From: the human T2T-CHM13v2.0 reference genome, Homo sapiens
Direction: 5' to 3' (one strand)
Assembly (NCBI RefSeq): GCF_009914755.1
Contig: NC_060940.1
DNA: 64,000 bases
In this document: in pieces, positions 38,959 to 50,900 of the stretch
How positions within the stretch are numbered: position 1 is the stretch's first letter
How the letters are laid out: the number at the start of each line of letters is the position of its first letter
Notes under the pieces: model-generated
What the model was told of the DNA's origin: nothing
Database searches by the model: none
Seen by the model: the letters and a program-made list of their open reading frames with translations, nothing else
Made by a program: the position numbers and the translations under genes

Positions 38959-41900
38959 ATGGGCGCCTGGGCCTTCCCCGCAGCCCTTTTCCTTCTCTGC
39001 CTGACTTCCGAGAGCCTGCAAGGTGGTGAGGGCAGCTTGGGGCTGGGGGTTGGAGAATGGGCATCTGTGACTGGGGCTGGGGGTCCAAGTGGGGCCCTGG
39101 CCAGATGCTGGGGTTCTGGAGACAAGGAGGGCTGGGGTGTGGAAAGCCTGGTCTGGGCAGAGAATTCAGACAGTGAGGGTTTTTGGGGGCTGGAGGATAG
39201 ATGCCTGGGCGCTGCCCCATCTCAGCCTCTGGGGTCCCCAGCCTTGAGTCAGCACTGTCTTGCTTCCGCAGGGCTGCCCCTTCTGCCTCCTGGCCTGGGG
39301 AAAGGTAGGTGGGCCCTCTGGCACTGGGGTCAGGAAGAGTCTCCCATCTCTCCTGCCCTGGGGGTGTGGGAGCTCTCTGGGACTCCCGATGCGGGGCCCA
39401 GGAGAGCTCAGGGCCCTTGCTGTCTTCCGGGCAGGGAGTCTCATCAAGTGTCCACTCAAGGGTGGGGAGCACAGACACCCTGCACTCTCAGAAGAGTCTC
39501 CCGGGGCAGAACATGCAGCCCTGAGGACGGGCCTGGGCAGGCTGAGAAGGGTGGGCAGGTGTGACAGGAGGGGCGGACCCACCGGCAGGCCAAAGGGGGC
39601 CGGAGGGGGAGAGGAGGGAGGGGACAAGGAGAACTGAGCCTGCTGAGGGGCAGGAGGTGGAGTGTCATGGAAGAGTCTTTACTTCAGGCACCTGGGGGGT
39701 CCTAAGGGTAGGAGGAGGGGCTGCCCCTGAGCCCTGATGCATCTGAGCTTCAGGAGAGAAAGATGGGGGGCAGAGGTGGTGAGAAGAAGAGGAGGAGATT
39801 TCCATGAAGGGAGAGGAGCCCAGTACTGAGAATGGATGGGAGAGGAGAGGAAGAGGGTGGAGTGGGCTCTGCCCCACAGTCCCCCAGAGCCCTGGCTCAG
39901 ACACCTTCCTCCAGGCCCAGGGGCCCTCTAGCCTCCACTGCCCTAGCCCCAGACTGCTCACCTCCTCTGCCCTCTACCCTCCTGTGACAGCAGGGAAACT
40001 GAGACCTGGAAAGGGAGGTGGCATCCAGATTTGGGCCCCTTTGTCCCCTTGTAAGTTCCCCTGCTTCCCCCTGAACCCCACAGGCTTAGGGAGCCCAAAT
40101 GGCTACAGATCTGGTAAAGCTGGTGGCGGGGTGCTTGGGGAGGGTGGCACACCGGCTCCCAGCTGCTCCAGCACCCCGGGCTCAACATCTCACTTCTCCC
40201 ACAGTCTATGGCCCCCACAGTGGCCTGGGAGCAGGTGAGGCCTGGCATAGGGAAGGGAGGCGTCTGAGGGCAGGGCACGGGGCAGGGGGGAGGCAGGACA
40301 GGAACAGGGAAAGCTGGGCGGGGGGCAGGTAAAGGGGGAAGCAGTCGTCTCAGAAATACATGGGGACAGAGCATAGCCCCAGAGTGTCCCCCAGGCACCC
40401 TGGCTGGGGAGAGGGGAAGGCAGGCAGGAAGAAATGGAGCGGGGAGGGAAGAAAGGAAAGAGAGCAGAAAGGAAGGAGAGAGGGAAGGAGGGAGGGAAGG
40501 AGGCTGAAAGCACCCACCTGTGCCCCACAGCCCTCCCCCCTCATGGGAAGGGACTGAGTTCCCACAGGCCCACTGCTTGGATAGGCTGTGGGCCAGGTGT
40601 GGGGCTCTGGGGAGATCCTGGGGGAGGGGTGTCCCTCACCTCCCTGTCTCTCCAGGCTATGATGGGGGCGTGAAGCCACAGAAGCCAGGTGAGCCCTGCC
40701 CCGGCCCCAGCTCTTTGTCTCCCCCTCTTTCTCTCACACTCCTCACCTCACCTCATCTGTCTCTCCAGGATTCGTGGTCAGGCATGGGCTGGGAACCCAG
40801 CCAGGTGAGAGCCGTGGGGTCCCCTCCTTCCCTCCCTCCCAGGCCTCAGACGGAAGAGGCAGGATTGGAGAGATTGTTGGGGGGAGGCGCAGAGAGCCTC
40901 TCAGGTTTGCTGGTGTCTGGCTTAGTCCAAGGGGGGGTTCAAGGGTCTTGTACCCCCACCTCAGCTGGGACCCCAAACCTCCTCAGCTCACCTCTCTCTC
41001 TCCCACGAGCCCTTCCACTAAGAATGGCTATGGAGCAGGTAGAGATGGGAGTGGGGGAGCTGGAAGCCAGGATTCTAGGGGTATCCCTGGGATGGGGATT
41101 CCTGAGCCCCTCATCTGATCCCCCTCTCTTTCCCAGACACTGAAGGGGGCATGAAACCCCAAAACCTAGGTGAGGCTCGCCCAGCCCCTGCCTGCCTCCC
41201 TCCTCCTGACTCCCTCCTGCCTTCTCGCCCCAGGGTTCAGGACCTTCGCAGGTGCTGCAGCCCAGCCAGGTGAGGCTGGGGGAAGCGGGTAAGGAATGGG
41301 AGGGGCTTGGGGGTGCCTAATCTTTGCCTGATACTGTGGGGGAGGGAATGCAGCCAGATCGGTGTTTCCAGGGTCTTCTCCAGGCTCCCAGGCCTCAGAG
41401 AGGGCAGAACAGGTGGGTGTCTCACGGGAAGTGGGCAGGAGGGGACGGTGAGGAGTTCTGATGTCTGGCTTGGTAAGGGGACAGGGGCACCTGGGCCTCA
41501 CCCCTGCCTCAGCTCGGTGTGGCTGTGGAGCAGGGAGCCCAGGGCGGGGAGGTGGGGCCCCTTCATCTGCCCATCTCTCTTCCCAGGCTTTGGAGGGGCT
41601 GAGAAGCCCCAGAAGCCAGAGGCGAGGCCGCCCCACACCTGTCCCAGTGTCCACTTCCCACCCTCTGTCTCTGTCTCTGCTTGACGCCCCATTCCCCCTC
41701 CTCATGTCCCTCTGGCTCTGTCTCCCCAGGATATGGAAACGGGCTGGGAGCAGCGGCCTTCCCAGTGGCCGGAGCCCAGTCAGGTGAGGAAACGTCGGGT
41801 GTGGCAGGACCTGGGCTTCCAGGAGGGAGGGGGAAGGGGCAGAGCAGAGTCAGGGCACCAGGAGCTGGGAGAGCTGGGCTCTGGAGGGAGGGCAGGGCTC

Positions 41901-47900: not shown

Positions 47901-50900
47901 TCCCTGTCTCCCTCCCAGGCCTCCAGAGCAGGTGGACACCAAAATGAGGGAGGAGAGGTGGCGCCAGGATCCCTGGTTTCTGACTTGGCTCTGAAAGGGG
48001 ATCCAAAGGCCCTTCGCCCTCTCCTTAGCTAGAATCCCAAACCCCCTGCTCACCCCTCCCTCCCCACAGGCCCCTTAGCCCAGAATGGCTACAGAGCAGG
48101 TACTGGGGGGCTGGAGTTGCTGGGAGTGCAGAAAGGAGGAAAGAGGTGGGGGCCTGGCTCTCCCCTGACCCTGTACTGAGGGTTTTCTTGGGGGCTCCTG
48201 CAGCCTTAGACGGGGTAGAGTCTGGAGAGGAGGCGGCACAAGGGGGAGGGAGGTGCTGGGAGCTCCAGTTCCTAAATTGGGAGGAAAGGGGGGCCAGGCT
48301 CCAGCCCCCTTCTGTACCCCAACCTCTCCCCATGCCGCCCCCACAGACCCTGCAGTTCCCACTGGTCATGGACCAGGAAGGGGAGGTTGGCATGGGCACC
48401 AGGTGGGGGACAGATGCCAGGTCTGGAAGAGACCCCTCAGTGAGGAGTGGGCATGGGTCCCTCACCTACTCGCATCTCTCCAGGTGCTGGAGAGGGCATG
48501 AAACCTCAGAAGCCAGGTAAGCCCTTCCCACTCCTCACTCTCCCTACCTGCAGAAACTGCCTACCCCTCCACCCTTTTCCCCTCCCAAGCTGTACCCTGT
48601 CTCCCCATGGTGCAAGAACGGGCTGGAGCTGGAGCCTTCCTGTGGGAAGGAGCCCAGCCAGGTGAGGGAGGTGGGTGGGACCTGGAGCAGAGGGGAAGGA
48701 GGACAGGCTCCAACGGACAGAGTTGGGTCTCAGTGGGGGAAGGGGTGGGGTGGGGTGGGCCTGTCCATTATTCTCCATGGGTCTCTGGCCTGGGAGAGAG
48801 CCAGAAACCTCCAAAGCCGAGTTGCTCTCTGCCCCTCTTCCTGCCTTCTCCAAGGTCCCCCACTCCAACCCCGCCCTCATGCCCTGCTCTCCCTCCCAGG
48901 ATACACACCAGGGACCTGGCTGGGGCTCCTGCCAGGTGAAAAGACGGGGCTAGGGGGATCAGCAGGGGAGAGAGGGGTTCACTACACTCCTCGGGTGGGC
49001 TGATGTCTGAACTGGCCTCTTTCTGTCTCTCCCCAGGCCTGCGAGGGACCTTGAAGCCTCAGAAGTCAGGCGAGTGGGGGACCCCTGGCTCTGCCCCACA
49101 CCTCCTTCTGCCTCTCAGCCCTTCTAGCCTCTGCCCCCAGTGTTGCCACACTCATCTCTGCTTTCCCTCTCCAGGACACGGCCATGAAAATGGGCCCTGG
49201 CCAGGTGAGGCCACTGGGACCAGGGGTGGGGGCCCAGGAGGAAGGGAGAGGGAGGCTGCTGGAAGACGGAGGGGCCTCCATCAGGAGCCCCATCCCTGCC
49301 AGATCCCTACATCCCTCTATCCCCTGCCTGGATCCCCAGGTCCCCCCAGGAGAGTGTGGACCAAGGGAGCTGGGCTTTTTCCAGCCTGGCTAATGTCCCC
49401 CTAAGGTGCTGGGTCTGCCCTAGAAGCCACTACAGGCCGGTGGCTTGGCCAGGCCAAGGCCTCCTGGGTGGCGTCGGTGAGGACTGGCCTGGAGCATAGC
49501 CCCACCCCTCCCTTCCTTCCCATCGTAGGTCCCTGCAATGCGAGGGTCGCTCCGATGCTCCTCCCCAGGCTTCCCACTCCAGGGGTCCCTTCGGACAAAG
49601 AGGGTGGCTGGGGCCTGAAATCCCAGCCCCCTTCCGCAGTGCAGAATGGCAAGTTACCAGGTCAGTGTGGAGTGGGGGTGCCTAGGGGGCACTGGGAAGC
49701 ACCTGGCCCTATGAGGGTCAGGGCCTGGCTGCCATATCCCACTCTGTCCTCGGATGCCAAGGCTCAGAGAGGGCAGTGACTTGTCACACAGTGATCTGCT
49801 GAGGAGAAGCCTGAACTCTGGCCCTGGGACCCCATGTGGTCCCCAGTATGGGAGTCCTTTCCATCCCTGCCCCATGGCATCTGCAGTCTCTCAAGCCCTC
49901 GGCTGGGCTCACTCCTGCCCCTAACCTTCCTCCTAGCACCAATGCCAGCCATCCAGTGGGGACTGAAACCTCAGAAAGCAGGTGTGAGTCTGTCTGCCCC
50001 CAGGCCCCACATCCCAGAGGGACAAACTCTCAGCTAGGTCTATCCTCTGTCTCCACCCCAGATCAGGGTCACCCCTCCATCACCCTTTTTCCCTAGGCTG
50101 CCTCAGCTATTCAGGCACCCGAAGGCCAGGAAGTCCCTCCCCGAGTCTACCCTCTTGCTCTTTTTTTTTTTTTTTTTTTTTTTTGAGACAGTCTCGCTCT
50201 GTCGCCCAGGCTGGAATGCAGTGGTGCAATTTTGGCTCACTGCAAAATACGCCTCCCAAGTAGTTGGCATTACAGGCACGCACCACCATACCTGGCTAAT
50301 CTTTGTATTTTTGTAGAGTCGGGGTTTTGTCACATTGGACAGGCTGGTCTCAAACTCCTGGCTTCAAGTGATCAGCCCACCTCAGCCTCCCAAAGTGCTG
50401 GGATTACAGGCGTGAGCCACTGCGCCCAGTCTCTTGCTGCTCTCCAGATTTCTTCTGGTTCCATTCCCTGTGGACAGGAAAAGTCTCTGCTTCCCCTTCA
50501 GAGTCCCTAAGGTCGATCTTTGGCCTCCAAGGAGTCAGGGGAGACCTGGGTCCCCCGCACTGACTTCCTTTCTCCTCACAGGGCACCAGCCTCCAAATGG
50601 CTATGGACCGGGAGCAGAACCAGGTGAGGAGGCCCTTCCTGGAGTTCCTCCCCTCCCTTCCCTTCCTCTTCCCTCCTCTTCCTTCTGCCATCCCAGGAAG
50701 AGGGGAGGCCAGGGCTGTGGCTCTCGCTGACCCCCATCTCTGAGTCACAGTTTTCTCTCCCCCAGGTTTTAATGGTGGCCTCGAGCCACAGAAAATTGGT
50801 GAGTCCTCCTGCGCCCCCGACCCATGTTGAGCGGAAGCTGGCATCTCCCTCATGCCTGAGTCAGTCTGTCTGTCCGCATCCCCCTGTCTATGAGCTGGTC

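What the first reader, a model, noticed from the sequence alone, without database searches (positions are those of the whole stretch)
40205..49204. Repeating 30/33/36-nt exon triplet matching ELN exons 3-4-5
Seen: exons fall into three classes cycling A-B-C. A is 30 nt (GPxxQNGY/FxP/A), B is 33 nt (GxGGxxKPxKP) and C is 36, 54 or 60 nt (GxGNGxG...A/TQP). Clear triplets are 40205/40656/40769 and 45380/45488/45609. Recalled: human ELN exons 3, 4 and 5 are 30, 33 and 36 nt (GVFYPGAGLG / ALGPGGKPLKP / VPGGLAGAGLGA); the first GREP1 triplet reads [10 protein letters not shown] / [11 protein letters not shown] / [12 protein letters not shown]. Inference: GREP1 grew by tandem amplification of a three-exon module shared with elastin.
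Basis: partly seen in the sequence, partly recalled or inferred. Interest (0 to 1): 0.85.

Follow-up and report, generated by a model that had tools for sequence, protein, structure and literature searches.

The report
GREP1 three-exon repeats resembling elastin
The human GREP1 gene is built from about 21 worn tandem copies of a unit of three tiny exons, and several separate clues suggest it is an overlooked relative of the elastin gene.

Summary
The three exon classes are real. GREP1 between window 40072 and 51149 is a decayed tandem array of about 21 units. Each unit carries up to three phase 1-1 mini-exons: A 30 nt, B 33 nt, C 36-63 nt. Intron similarity and a unit profile whose A/B/C slots fall on annotated exon borders both show this.

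The strict A-B-C cycle exists in the DNA, not in the selected mRNA.

Read from the same genome, ELN exons 3, 4 and 5 are indeed 30, 33 and 36 nt, all phase 1-1.

Only B resembles an ELN exon (exon 4): same length, same phase, KPxKP ending, and no third such exon among the genome-wide pattern matches. A versus exon 3 and C versus exon 5 show nothing beyond size. DNA-profile and HMMER searches do not link the two genes.

Three things favour kinship. Both genes have a short last exon with a conserved C-x4-C loop around LGK. Both use phase 1-1 throughout. Their flanking genes (claudins, LIMK, KREMEN) are closest paralogues.

GREP1 orthologues were found only in placentals and marsupials.

Verdict: array certain; elastin kinship probable (about 0.65); block homology with ELN exons 3-5 doubtful (about 0.3).

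The parts
38959..39022 (+). GREP1 exon 1 (coding part): signal peptide plus the first base of a Gly codon, phase 0 to 1
   Evidence: ELN exon 1 has the same design (82 nt coding; Keeley preprint).
39272..39304 (+). Exon 2, 33 nt, [11 protein letters not shown]. Belongs to none of the three classes.
   Evidence: mean identity 0.46 to A, 0.33 to B, 0.30 to C
40072..40244 (+). Unit 1. The A slot 40084-40113 ([10 protein letters not shown]) has intact AG/GT and is not in the annotation table given. Exon 3 (40205-40234) sits at the B position, but its sequence is closest to class A.
   Evidence: The same peptide is expressed in predicted bat, elephant-shrew and marmoset proteins.
40560..40979 (+). 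Unit 2. The A slot 40568-40596 is decayed (29 nt, stop). B = exon 4 (40656-40688). C = exon 5 (40769-40804).
40991..41402 (+). Unit 3. A slot 41009-41038 has a broken acceptor. B slot 41137-41169 ([11 protein letters not shown]) has AG/GT and is unannotated. C = exon 6 (41234-41269).
41517..41825 (+). Unit 4. B slot 41587-41621 is decayed (35 nt, GC donor). C = exon 7 (41730-41783, 54 nt).
41857..42148 (+). Unit 5. B slot 41922-41954 ([11 protein letters not shown]) is used at the end of alternative first exons. C = exon 8 (42060-42119, 60 nt).
42144..42365 (+). Unit 6: only a decayed B slot, 42240-42268 (29 nt)
42549..42895 (+). Unit 7. B slot 42668-42700 and C slot 42794-42853 both have broken acceptors. 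Both lie inside an alternative first exon (42559-42853).
42972..43158 (+). Unit 8: C only = exon 9 (43085-43120)
43467..43862 (+). Unit 9. A = exon 10 (43487-43516). B = exon 11 (43613-43645). C slot 43749-43808 has a broken acceptor.
43866..43995 (+). Unit 10: B slot 43943-43975 ([13 protein letters not shown] donor), unused
44040..45226 (.). Interspersed repeats of about 300 nt (Alu-like by length; the family was not determined). They split the array between units 10 and 11. Further copies lie at 46598-46912 and 50152-50432.
   Evidence: mutual matches of 70-83% in both orientations; masked in the hub's table
45363..45823 (+). Unit 11, the best-kept unit: A = exon 12 (45380-45409), B = exon 13 (45488-45520), C = exon 14 (45609-45644)
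45815..46243 (+). Unit 12. A slot 45832-45861 has a broken acceptor. B = exon 15 (45965-45997). C = alternative exon 46083-46118.
46283..46670 (+). Unit 13. A = exon 16 (46300-46335, 36 nt). B = exon 17 (46420-46452). C = alternative exon 46538-46591 (54 nt).
46996..47232 (+). Unit 14. B slot 47053-47083 is decayed. C = exon 18 (47177-47212).
47281..47429 (+). Unit 15: B = exon 19 (47354-47386)
47609..48043 (+). Unit 16. A slot 47626-47655 has a broken donor and is read through in an alternative transcript. B = exon 20 (47734-47766). C slot 47850-47879 is decayed.
48054..48147 (+). Unit 17: only an A slot, 48070-48099 ([10 protein letters not shown]), with intact AG/GT, not in the annotation table given
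48330..48793 (+). Unit 18. A slot 48347-48376 has a broken donor. B = exon 21 (48484-48516). C slot 48609-48661 is decayed (53 nt).
48785..49010 (+). Unit 19. B slot 48788-48821 is decayed. C = alternative exon 48900-48935.
49017..49274 (+). Unit 20. B = exon 22 (49037-49069, GC donor). C = exon 23 (49175-49204, 30 nt).
50569..51149 (+). Unit 21. A = exon 25 (50582-50623). B = exon 26 (50766-50798). C = alternative exon 50972-51034. It is followed by a further A-like alternative exon, 51117-51146.
52241..52266 (+). Last coding exon, phase 1, G|RCPLGKC-stop. This C-x4-C loop around LGK is the counterpart of the ELN last exon, G|GACLGKACGRKRK-stop.
   Evidence: shared CTGGGGAAA core. 91 of 195 stored proteins end in C-x4-C, CPLGKC in 55. 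The wombat protein keeps it.

Best explanation
GREP1 exons 3-26 are what remains of a tandem array of about 21 copies of a unit. The unit is 450-480 bp, or about 300-335 bp where the A part is missing. It carries three mini-exons: A (30 nt, GPxxQNGYGP), B (33 nt, GxGGxVKPQKP) and C (36 or 54-63 nt, GYGNGNGLGAQP or [18 protein letters not shown]).

The array most likely grew by unequal crossing-over. This happened before marsupials and placentals split.

Every exon starts and ends after the first base of a codon, and every exon ends in G. Any subset of slots can therefore be spliced together in frame. This would explain why many slots have decayed or serve only as alternative exons without breaking the protein.

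The product is a secreted, glycine-rich, probably disordered matrix protein. It carries repeated Lys-Pro-x-Lys-Pro sites.

Inferred, not shown: GREP1 is an ancient paralogue of elastin, probably from the early vertebrate genome duplications. It would have kept three features of elastin: the phase 1-1 cassette design, the KP-type cross-linking exon (ELN exon 4 = class B) and the terminal Cys-loop exon. Its spacer exons would have become polar (G/N/Q/Y) instead of hydrophobic. On this reading the B lysines are candidate lysyl-oxidase cross-linking sites.
For: Array.
- 119 self-matches in 38500-53000. The best non-Alu pair is 70.6% identical over 557 nt, introns included.
- A single-unit nhmmer query gives 19 hits, all on the plus strand and all inside 40075-50814.
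- The iterated profile gives 28 hits: 23 plus-strand inside GREP1, 4 weak minus-strand inside, 1 outside, and 0 in a shuffled window.
- Profile slots fall on annotated exon borders in 23 of 23 exons of the selected transcript that lie in the array. They also fall on the alternative exons at 46083, 46538, 47626, 48900 and 50972.
- Classes cluster: 44 of 46 slots.
- The unit has no DNA copy elsewhere in the genome.
- Bat and wombat orthologues show the A-B-C cycle in the protein.

ELN kinship.
- ELN exons 3/4/5 are 30/33/36 nt, and ELN borders are all phase 1:1 (Keeley preprint section 3).
- The genome-wide pattern for KPxKP|G-GTRAG gives 20 matches against 7 for the reversed control. These are 6 GREP1 B exons, ELN exon 4 and 13 others. 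Only the GREP1 exons and ELN exon 4 have an acceptor exactly 33 nt upstream, an open frame and a pyrimidine tract.
- The last exons are G|RCPLGKC-stop and G|GACLGKACGRKRK-stop, both phase 1. This end is conserved in GREP1 as far as the wombat.
- In a tree of 14 claudins, the claudins beside ELN (C7, 199 kb away) and beside GREP1 (CLDN9/CLDN6, 11 kb away) fall with one chr22 claudin in a clade of five, support 95/95.
- KREMEN2 lies beside GREP1. The LIM kinase gene lies beside ELN. Their best paralogues lie 2.1 Mb apart on C22.
- Prensner preprint passages: GREP1 is secreted and was pulled down with fibronectin and EMILIN2.
Against: - A HMMER profile of 9 GREP1 orthologues against 1.84 billion proteins gave 88 hits. 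I fetched 19 of them (9 proteins; 10 proteins): 18 were GREP1-type and one was an unrelated repeat protein. None of the 88 lengths fits a tropoelastin, about 700-800 aa from recall, other than hits that name as GREP1 orthologues or that I inspected.
- The unit DNA profile hits ELN exon 4 in register, but at only 8.6 bits. Unrelated control DNA (232 kb) gives chance hits of 13.5, 10.8, 9.2 and 8.8 bits.
- Outside the KPxKP codons, ELN exon 4 is no closer to B exons than its own shuffles. Mean identity is 5.3 of 17 nt against 5.8 shuffled; B versus B is 9.6.
- ELN exon 3 versus A and exon 5 versus C show no clear similarity.
- Named GREP1 orthologues are all placental or marsupial. No monotreme, bird, reptile, amphibian or fish appears in the 120 of 150 rows listed or the 120 of 141 listed. 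An old paralogue should exist outside Theria unless it was lost or left unannotated.
- GREP1 has no KA-type domain, no RKRK end and few Val residues (4.1%).
- CLDN9 and CLDN6 pair with each other in the tree, not one-to-one with the chr7 pair.
Confidence: 0.65

Rival explanations
1. Independent origin with convergence. GREP1 is a gene of therian mammals that built its own three-exon unit and amplified it. Splice-site preference (CAG|G) favours exons that end in Pro or Gln codons plus G. Lys-Pro motifs were selected for matrix binding or cross-linking. The 30/33/36 match and the KPxKP exon are then coincidence or convergence, and the position beside claudins is chance.
For: - No profile-level similarity to tropoelastin.
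- The ELN exon 4 DNA hit lies within the range of chance hits.
- No similarity outside the KPxKP codons.
- A and C are unlike ELN exons 3 and 5.
- Wombat C exons are 18 aa, not 12.
- Orthologues were found only in placentals and marsupials.
Against: - The terminal exon shares the Cys spacing, the LGK core, the phase and the preceding Gly-Gly with ELN. It is conserved in both families (Keeley preprint passages).
- The three loci of the five-member claudin clade are the ELN, GREP1 and chr22 loci. By my own estimate, the chance that an unrelated gene lies within 200 kb of one of the two non-ELN loci is about 3 in 10,000.
- chr22 carries the paralogues of both KREMEN2 and the LIM kinase gene.
Confidence: 0.25
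2. Late derivation from ELN. In the mammalian stem lineage a partial copy of ELN (signal exon, 5' mini-exons, last exon) landed on the future chr16. It diverged quickly and then amplified its exon 3-5 block.
For: - The taxonomic range found is Theria only.
- Exon order and sizes are 30/33/36, at exon numbers 3-5 in both genes.
Against: - ELN exons 2-5 are well conserved across amniotes (Keeley preprint passages). Yet GREP1 A and C exons and its signal peptide show no similarity to ELN.
- A copy landing beside the claudin paralogues would be a coincidence.
- No intron or flank similarity to ELN was detected.
Confidence: 0.07

Closest known systems
ELN (tropoelastin), human chr7q11.23
   Same: - Secreted matrix protein. 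Exon 1 is the signal peptide plus one base of a Gly codon.
- Every exon border is phase 1:1, so exons behave as cassettes.
- Lysine exons alternate with spacer exons.
- One 33-nt KP-type exon ends in KPxKP.
- A short last exon carries a C-x4-C loop around LGK.
- The gene lies beside claudins of the same clade.
- Part of the gene was built by replication of exon groups (Keeley preprint).
   Different: - GREP1 spacers are Gly/Asn/Gln/Tyr-rich, not Val/Pro/Ala-rich.
- It has no KA-type (poly-Ala) cross-linking exons and no RKRK end.
- It is not next to LIMK1.
- Its repeated unit has three exons, not two.
- Its introns are far shorter.
- Profile searches do not connect the two proteins.
The 'replicated region' of ELN (domains 15-29b): repeated hydrophobic/cross-linking exon pairs
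   Same: Growth of a matrix gene by tandem copies of a small group of symmetric-phase exons, followed by divergence and by gain or loss of single exons between lineages (Keeley preprint).
   Different: - In GREP1 the introns still align (up to 70.6%).
- The unit has three members.
- About half of the 47 detectable slots are unused or decayed in the selected human transcript: 23 are used.
GREP1 as described by Prensner et al. (preprint 10.1101/2020.03.10.981001)
   Same: The same gene (formerly LINC00514): secreted, glycine-rich, predicted disordered, conserved, pulled down with fibronectin and EMILIN2 (passages).
   Different: The preprint text holds no occurrence of 'elastin'. Its supplementary figures could not be seen. 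The passages I read say nothing of the exon-triplet array. I did not read the whole text.

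Membership tests
Tandem exon-duplication array of symmetric-phase cassette exons | Head-to-tail repeats on one strand that include intron sequence | tested here: met
   23 plus-strand profile hits inside GREP1 and 0 in a shuffled window. Best pair 70.6% over 557 nt. TRF missed it because the copies are too diverged.
Tandem exon-duplication array of symmetric-phase cassette exons | All repeated exons share one symmetric phase, so copies stay in frame | tested here: met
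   27 of 27 internal coding exons are phase 1-1; 28 of 28 exons end in G.
Tandem exon-duplication array of symmetric-phase cassette exons | Repeat register coincides with exon borders | tested here: met
   the A/B/C slots of the profile alignment coincide with the annotated borders of exons 3-23, 25 and 26 (exon 25 runs 12 nt past its slot).
Tropoelastin (ELN) proper | All exon borders phase 1:1 | tested here: met
   for GREP1. Keeley preprint section 3 and for ELN.
Tropoelastin (ELN) proper | KP-type lysine cross-linking exons | tested here: met
   10 B-class exons in the selected transcript. 6 genomic B slots fit the same pattern as ELN exon 4. Cross-linking itself was not tested.
Tropoelastin (ELN) proper | Hydrophobic Val/Pro/Gly/Ala domains between cross-linking domains | tested here: not met
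   the spacers are G/N/Q/Y-rich. Val is 4.1%, Gln 6.9% and Asn 4.3%. [quoted passage not shown]
Tropoelastin (ELN) proper | KA-type (poly-Ala) cross-linking domains | tested here: not met
   by eye, none of the 29 exon peptides has an Ala run with paired Lys. No motif count was run.
Tropoelastin (ELN) proper | C-terminal exon with the protein's Cys pair | tested here: met
   The mature GREP1 has one further Cys, in exon 24.
Tropoelastin (ELN) proper | Terminal tetrabasic RKRK | tested here: not met
   GREP1 stops directly after the second Cys.
Tropoelastin (ELN) proper | Lies about 12 kb upstream of LIMK1 | tested here: not met
   GREP1 is on C16. The LIM kinase exon lies on C7, downstream of ELN (Keeley preprint).
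Tropoelastin (ELN) proper | Detectable sequence similarity to tropoelastins | tested here: not met
   88 hits, and none recognised as tropoelastin among those inspected. Some orthologues carry the automatic NCBI name 'elastin-like', which is not a test.
Ohnologue pair from the early vertebrate genome duplications (ELN/GREP1) | Flanking genes of the two loci are each other's closest paralogues | tested here: met
   clade of five claudins, support 95/95; the paralogues of KREMEN2 and of the LIM kinase gene both lie on C22, 2.1 Mb apart.
Ohnologue pair from the early vertebrate genome duplications (ELN/GREP1) | Both genes present across jawed vertebrates | tested here: inconclusive
   GREP1 proteins come only from placentals and marsupials. 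Only annotated proteins could be searched, not vertebrate genomes. The human gene itself was filed as a lncRNA until about 2020.
Ohnologue pair from the early vertebrate genome duplications (ELN/GREP1) | Homologous exons beyond shared composition | tested here: inconclusive
   For: the 33-nt KPxKP exon and the terminal exon. Against.

The most novel reading that the evidence does not exclude
GREP1 is the surviving sister gene of elastin from the early vertebrate genome duplications. A proto-elastin gene would then predate those duplications. It would already have had phase 1-1 cassette exons, KP-type lysine exons and a Cys-loop end, and would have lain beside a claudin. Mammals would carry a second, polar, lysyl-oxidase-cross-linkable member of the elastin family. 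This member is expressed in tissues such as the inner annulus fibrosus and re-expressed in breast cancer.
Probability: 0.4. Interest if true: 0.8.

Novelty: new member of a known kind. Interest (0 to 1): 0.6.

Why it matters
[quoted passage not shown] A sister gene would give a second view of how the elastin design arose.

GREP1 is an orphan secreted protein. It was reported as a selective dependency of breast-cancer lines (Prensner preprint) and as a sharply localised transcript of the inner annulus fibrosus in mouse (PMC13082079).

Kinship with elastin gives GREP1 a testable mechanism: lysyl-oxidase cross-linking through the KPxKP exons, and docking through the terminal Cys loop.

The array also explains the many RefSeq isoforms. 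It marks intact but unannotated mini-exons.

None of my four searches for the gene's names together with elastin found the link in print: GREP1, GREP1 + elastin, LINC00514 + elastin, and 1520401A03Rik.

Tried and rejected
- TRF on 39000-52000 found no long-period array. The copies are too diverged, so this is not evidence against the array.
- Rfam: no match in 38000-53000.
- Pfam on 3 GREP1 proteins: no family.
- PDB sequence search: no match.
- The unit DNA has no copy outside GREP1.
- The nhmmer hit of the unit profile on ELN exon 4 is gapless and in register (E 0.006). I first took it as support, then rejected it as evidence on its own. Control DNA gives equal or better chance scores. That control set includes loci chosen for the KPxKP pattern.
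- Similarity of the 5' 17 nt of ELN exon 4 to B exons: none.
- ELN exon 3 versus A and exon 5 versus C: none clear.
- Reading exon 3 as a plain class A exon of the unit holding exons 4-5: rejected on position. Its class stays ambiguous, because its sequence is nearest A. It is a conserved exon of its own, GYGPPSGLGA, in cat, whale and pig.
- I dropped two weak profile rows (49958-50097 and 51672-51823) and all five minus-strand rows (four weak ones inside GREP1 and one outside) from the unit table.
- A broad literature search on elastin exon phase was useless.
- The search tropoelastin + paralog + gnathostome gave 2 papers that looked irrelevant from the listing.
- Indik 1987 is not held.
The ELN domain tables of the Keeley paper and the conservation figure of Prensner et al. 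were therefore not seen.

Full report
**What is in the window.** The annotated GREP1 coding sequence (29 coding exons, 38959-52266) translates without a stop to 414 aa.
- All 27 internal coding exons begin and end after the first base of a codon.
- Acceptors are AG at 28 of 28 introns. Donors are GT at 27 of 28 and GC at one (exon 22).
- All 28 exons that precede an intron end in G. The split codon reads Gly at 25, Val at 2 and Glu at 1 of 28 junctions.
- The mature protein is 24.7% Gly and 14.0% Pro, with 6.9% Gln and 6.1% Lys.

**The repeat is genomic, not only a protein motif.** A self-comparison of 38500-53000 gave 119 matches. Interspersed repeats of about 300 nt lie at 44040-45226, 46598-46912 and 50152-50432. 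Apart from these, the best pairs span exons and introns:
- 45361-45894 versus 47608-48132: 70.6% over 557 nt.
- 40562-41274 versus 45374-46123: 62% over 783 nt.
- 45421-46110 versus 45896-46559: 62% over 714 nt.

A profile search started from the unit 45340-45830 found 19 copies, all on the plus strand and all inside GREP1. After two rounds it found 28 hits:
- 23 plus-strand hits between 40072 and 51823.
- 4 weak minus-strand hits inside the gene.
- 1 hit outside, at 24375-24336.
- None in a shuffled window.

I kept 21 units. I dropped two weak plus-strand rows and the minus-strand rows.

Tandem Repeats Finder did not see the array, as expected for copies about 60-70% alike.

**Slots and exons.** I projected the three exons of the reference unit through the profile alignment. 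The slots fall on annotated exon borders for all 23 array exons of the selected transcript. They also fall on the alternative exons at 46083, 46538, 47626, 48900 and 50972, and on the B slot 41922-41954 that ends alternative first exons.

Of 63 possible slots, 47 are detectable: 12 A, 19 B and 16 C. The selected transcript uses them as follows:
- A slots: exons 10, 12, 16, 25.
- B slots: exons 4, 11, 13, 15, 17, 19, 20, 21, 22, 26.
- C slots: exons 5, 6, 7, 8, 9, 14, 18, 23.
- Exon 3 sits at a B position.

The other slots have broken splice sites, frameshifts or stops, or look intact but are not in the table I was given (40084-40113, 41137-41169, 48070-48099).

Spacing between B slots is 450-480 nt for full units and about 300-335 nt where A is missing.

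By exon sequence alone the classes separate. The nearest neighbour is of the same class for 44 of 46 slots. Within-class identity is 0.61, 0.67 and 0.53, against 0.33-0.44 between classes.

**Corrections to the observation.**
- The A-B-C cycle is a property of the DNA. The mRNA skips many slots.
- The triplet 45380/45488/45609 is one unit.
- The triplet 40205/40656/40769 is not. A decayed A slot with an in-frame stop (40568-40596) lies between exon 3 and exon 4. Exon 3 belongs to the preceding unit, whose own A slot is 40084-40113.
- Exon 3 is ambiguous. Its position is that of B, but its sequence is nearest A (mean 0.60, against 0.35 to B and 0.40 to C). It is a conserved exon of its own (GYGPPSGLGA) in cat, whale and pig.
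- Exon 23 (30 nt) is a shortened C and exon 16 (36 nt) a lengthened A.

**Age and range.** Database searches returned GREP1 proteins from many placentals, including afrotherians and xenarthrans. They also returned five marsupials: wombat, Tasmanian devil, koala, tammar wallaby and sugar glider. No other vertebrate appeared in the rows listed: 120 of 150 and 120 of 141.

Bat and wombat proteins show the A-B-C cycle plainly. The array is therefore older than the marsupial-placental split.

In the wombat the C exons are 18 aa. It is therefore open whether 36 nt is the original C length.

A HMMER profile of nine orthologues found only 88 proteins among 1.84 billion. Those I inspected were GREP1 fragments, isoforms and one unrelated repeat protein.

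Pfam and the PDB gave nothing.

**ELN, read from the same assembly.** The window's assembly can be searched. The two best claudin matches on C7 guided me to ELN. I fetched C7:75215001-75295000. I then located the gene by the signal-peptide start and the RKRK end that the Keeley preprint describes.

I took as exons the open phase 1-1 segments with a pyrimidine tract, AG and a good donor. The 5' exons are then:

| ELN exon | Length | Peptide |
|---|---|---|
| 1 | 82 nt coding | signal peptide plus one base |
| 2 | 51 nt | ends ...GGVFYP |
| 3 | 30 nt | GAGLGALGGG |
| 4 | 33 nt | ALGPGGKPLKP |
| 4a relic | 30 nt | not part of the main series |
| 5 | 36 nt | VPGGLAGAGLGA |
| 6 | 93 nt | |

The exon 4a relic between exons 4 and 5 agrees with the preprint's account and fixes the numbering.

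The recalled sizes were therefore right. The recalled exon 3 peptide was not. These borders are my inference from the sequence, not from an annotation table.

The preprint states that all ELN borders are phase 1:1. It also states that ELN lies about 12 kb upstream of LIM kinase 1 in all amniotes (section 3 read whole).

**Is the module shared with ELN? Evidence for B = exon 4.**
- The length is the same (33 nt) and so is the phase.
- Both have a Gly-rich first half and the ending KPxKP followed by G|GT.
- Up to 7 of 11 residues and 23 of 33 bases are identical. B versus B averages 21.7 of 33, range 15-27.

A pattern built from the GREP1 B consensus (Lys-Pro-x-Lys-Pro, G, GTRAG) matches 20 places in the whole genome, against 7 for the reversed control. 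These are six GREP1 B slots, ELN exon 4 and 13 others.

Only the GREP1 slots and ELN exon 4 have an AG exactly 33 nt before the donor together with an open frame and a pyrimidine tract. One other place has the AG but two stops.

**Is the module shared with ELN? Evidence against, or neutral.**
- The unit profile aligns ELN exon 4 gaplessly and in register, but at 8.6 bits. A control of 232 kb of other human DNA gives chance hits of 13.5, 10.8, 9.2 and 8.8 bits.
- In the 17 nt before the first Lys codon, ELN exon 4 is no closer to B exons than its own shuffles (5.3 versus 5.8; B versus B 9.6).
- ELN exon 3 is equally far from A and B (0.45). Exon 5 is only marginally nearest C (0.45).

The block homology A-B-C = exons 3-4-5 therefore rests on one short exon plus a size pattern. 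The wombat makes the size pattern less secure.

(a) The last coding exons. GREP1 has G|RCPLGKC-stop and ELN has G|GACLGKACGRKRK-stop. Both are phase 1, both follow Gly, both have C-x4-C around LGK, and the codons CTG GGG AAA are identical.

This end is conserved in GREP1: 91 of 195 stored proteins end in C-x4-C, and CPLGKC accounts for 55. The wombat protein keeps it too. In ELN the preprint calls it strongly conserved across vertebrates.

(b) Flanking genes.
- GREP1 ends 11 kb before CLDN9/CLDN6. ELN starts 199 kb after a claudin pair on C7.
- In a tree of 14 single-exon claudins these four and one chr22 claudin form a clade with support 95/95.
- KREMEN2 lies upstream of GREP1. Its best paralogue is at C22:29.60 Mb.
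- The kinase exon of the gene downstream of ELN has its best paralogue at C22:31.74 Mb.

chr7, chr16 and chr22 thus look like three copies of one ancestral segment. By my own rough estimate, the chance that an unrelated gene lies within 200 kb of one of the two non-ELN claudin loci is about 3 in 10,000.

(c) The shared phase 1-1 cassette design and the signal-peptide-only first exon. These are weak evidence, since both features are common in secreted proteins.

**Verdict.**
- The array is certain.
- I put common ancestry of GREP1 and ELN at about 0.65-0.7. Most of that is as an old duplicate from the early vertebrate genome duplications.
- Convergence in a therian-born gene gets about 0.25.
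- A late partial copy of ELN gets below 0.1.
- The specific claim that the three-exon unit descends as a block from the ancestors of ELN exons 3-5 gets about 0.3.

GREP1 is not a tropoelastin. It lacks hydrophobic domains, KA domains, the RKRK end, the LIMK1 position and any profile-level similarity.

**Function (inferred).** GREP1 would be a secreted, disordered matrix protein whose B exons offer paired lysines in a Pro context, as in elastin's KP domains. They would serve for lysyl-oxidase cross-linking. The Cys loop would be a docking end.

Passages I read report that GREP1 is secreted and was pulled down with fibronectin and EMILIN2. They also report sharply localised Grep1 transcripts in the inner annulus fibrosus of mouse. 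Neither paper mentions elastin in its text.

**Prior literature.** Searches for GREP1 (29 papers), 'glycine rich extracellular protein' (1), GREP1 + elastin (1, on snail proteins), 1520401A03Rik (5) and LINC00514 + elastin (2, judged from the listing only) found no statement of this kinship.

Some orthologues carry the automatic database name 'elastin-like'. This shows that a pipeline saw composition-level likeness. It is not an analysis.

Noticed in passing
window 40084-40113: An A-class mini-exon ([10 protein letters not shown]) that looks intact, with AG acceptor and GT donor. It is not among the exons listed for GREP1. The same peptide is part of predicted GREP1 proteins of a bat, an elephant shrew and a marmoset.
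   Followed up: partly
window 48070-48099 and 41137-41169: Two more slots with intact AG/GT and open frames that are absent from the annotation table: an A slot ([10 protein letters not shown]) and a B slot ([11 protein letters not shown]). They are possible unannotated cassette exons.
   Followed up: no
window 49069/49070: Exon 22 uses a GC donor, the only non-GT donor among the 28 GREP1 introns.
   Followed up: no
L037:8138-8167 (C7:75243138-75243167): Between human ELN exons 4 and 5 lies a 30-nt open phase 1-1 segment (DARILGAFGA) with a strong acceptor and donor. It fits the degenerate great-ape relic of 'exon 4a' described in the Keeley preprint.
   Followed up: partly
P0075 and P0105 (pig): Two UniRef pig proteins named PAQR4 carry the PAQR Pfam domain and also match GREP1 strongly. 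They are probably read-through or merged gene models, since PAQR4 lies upstream of GREP1 on the same strand.
   Followed up: no
window 24336-24375, minus strand: The only profile hit outside GREP1 (13.5 bits). In one frame it reads [11 protein letters not shown] and lies in a PKMYT1 intron. I took it as a chance match and used it to calibrate the ELN hit.
   Followed up: yes
G000:C23:11286793-11286957: A third match to the LIM kinase exon (49% identity, open frame) lies on contig 23, besides the copies on C7 and C22. I did not identify it.
   Followed up: no
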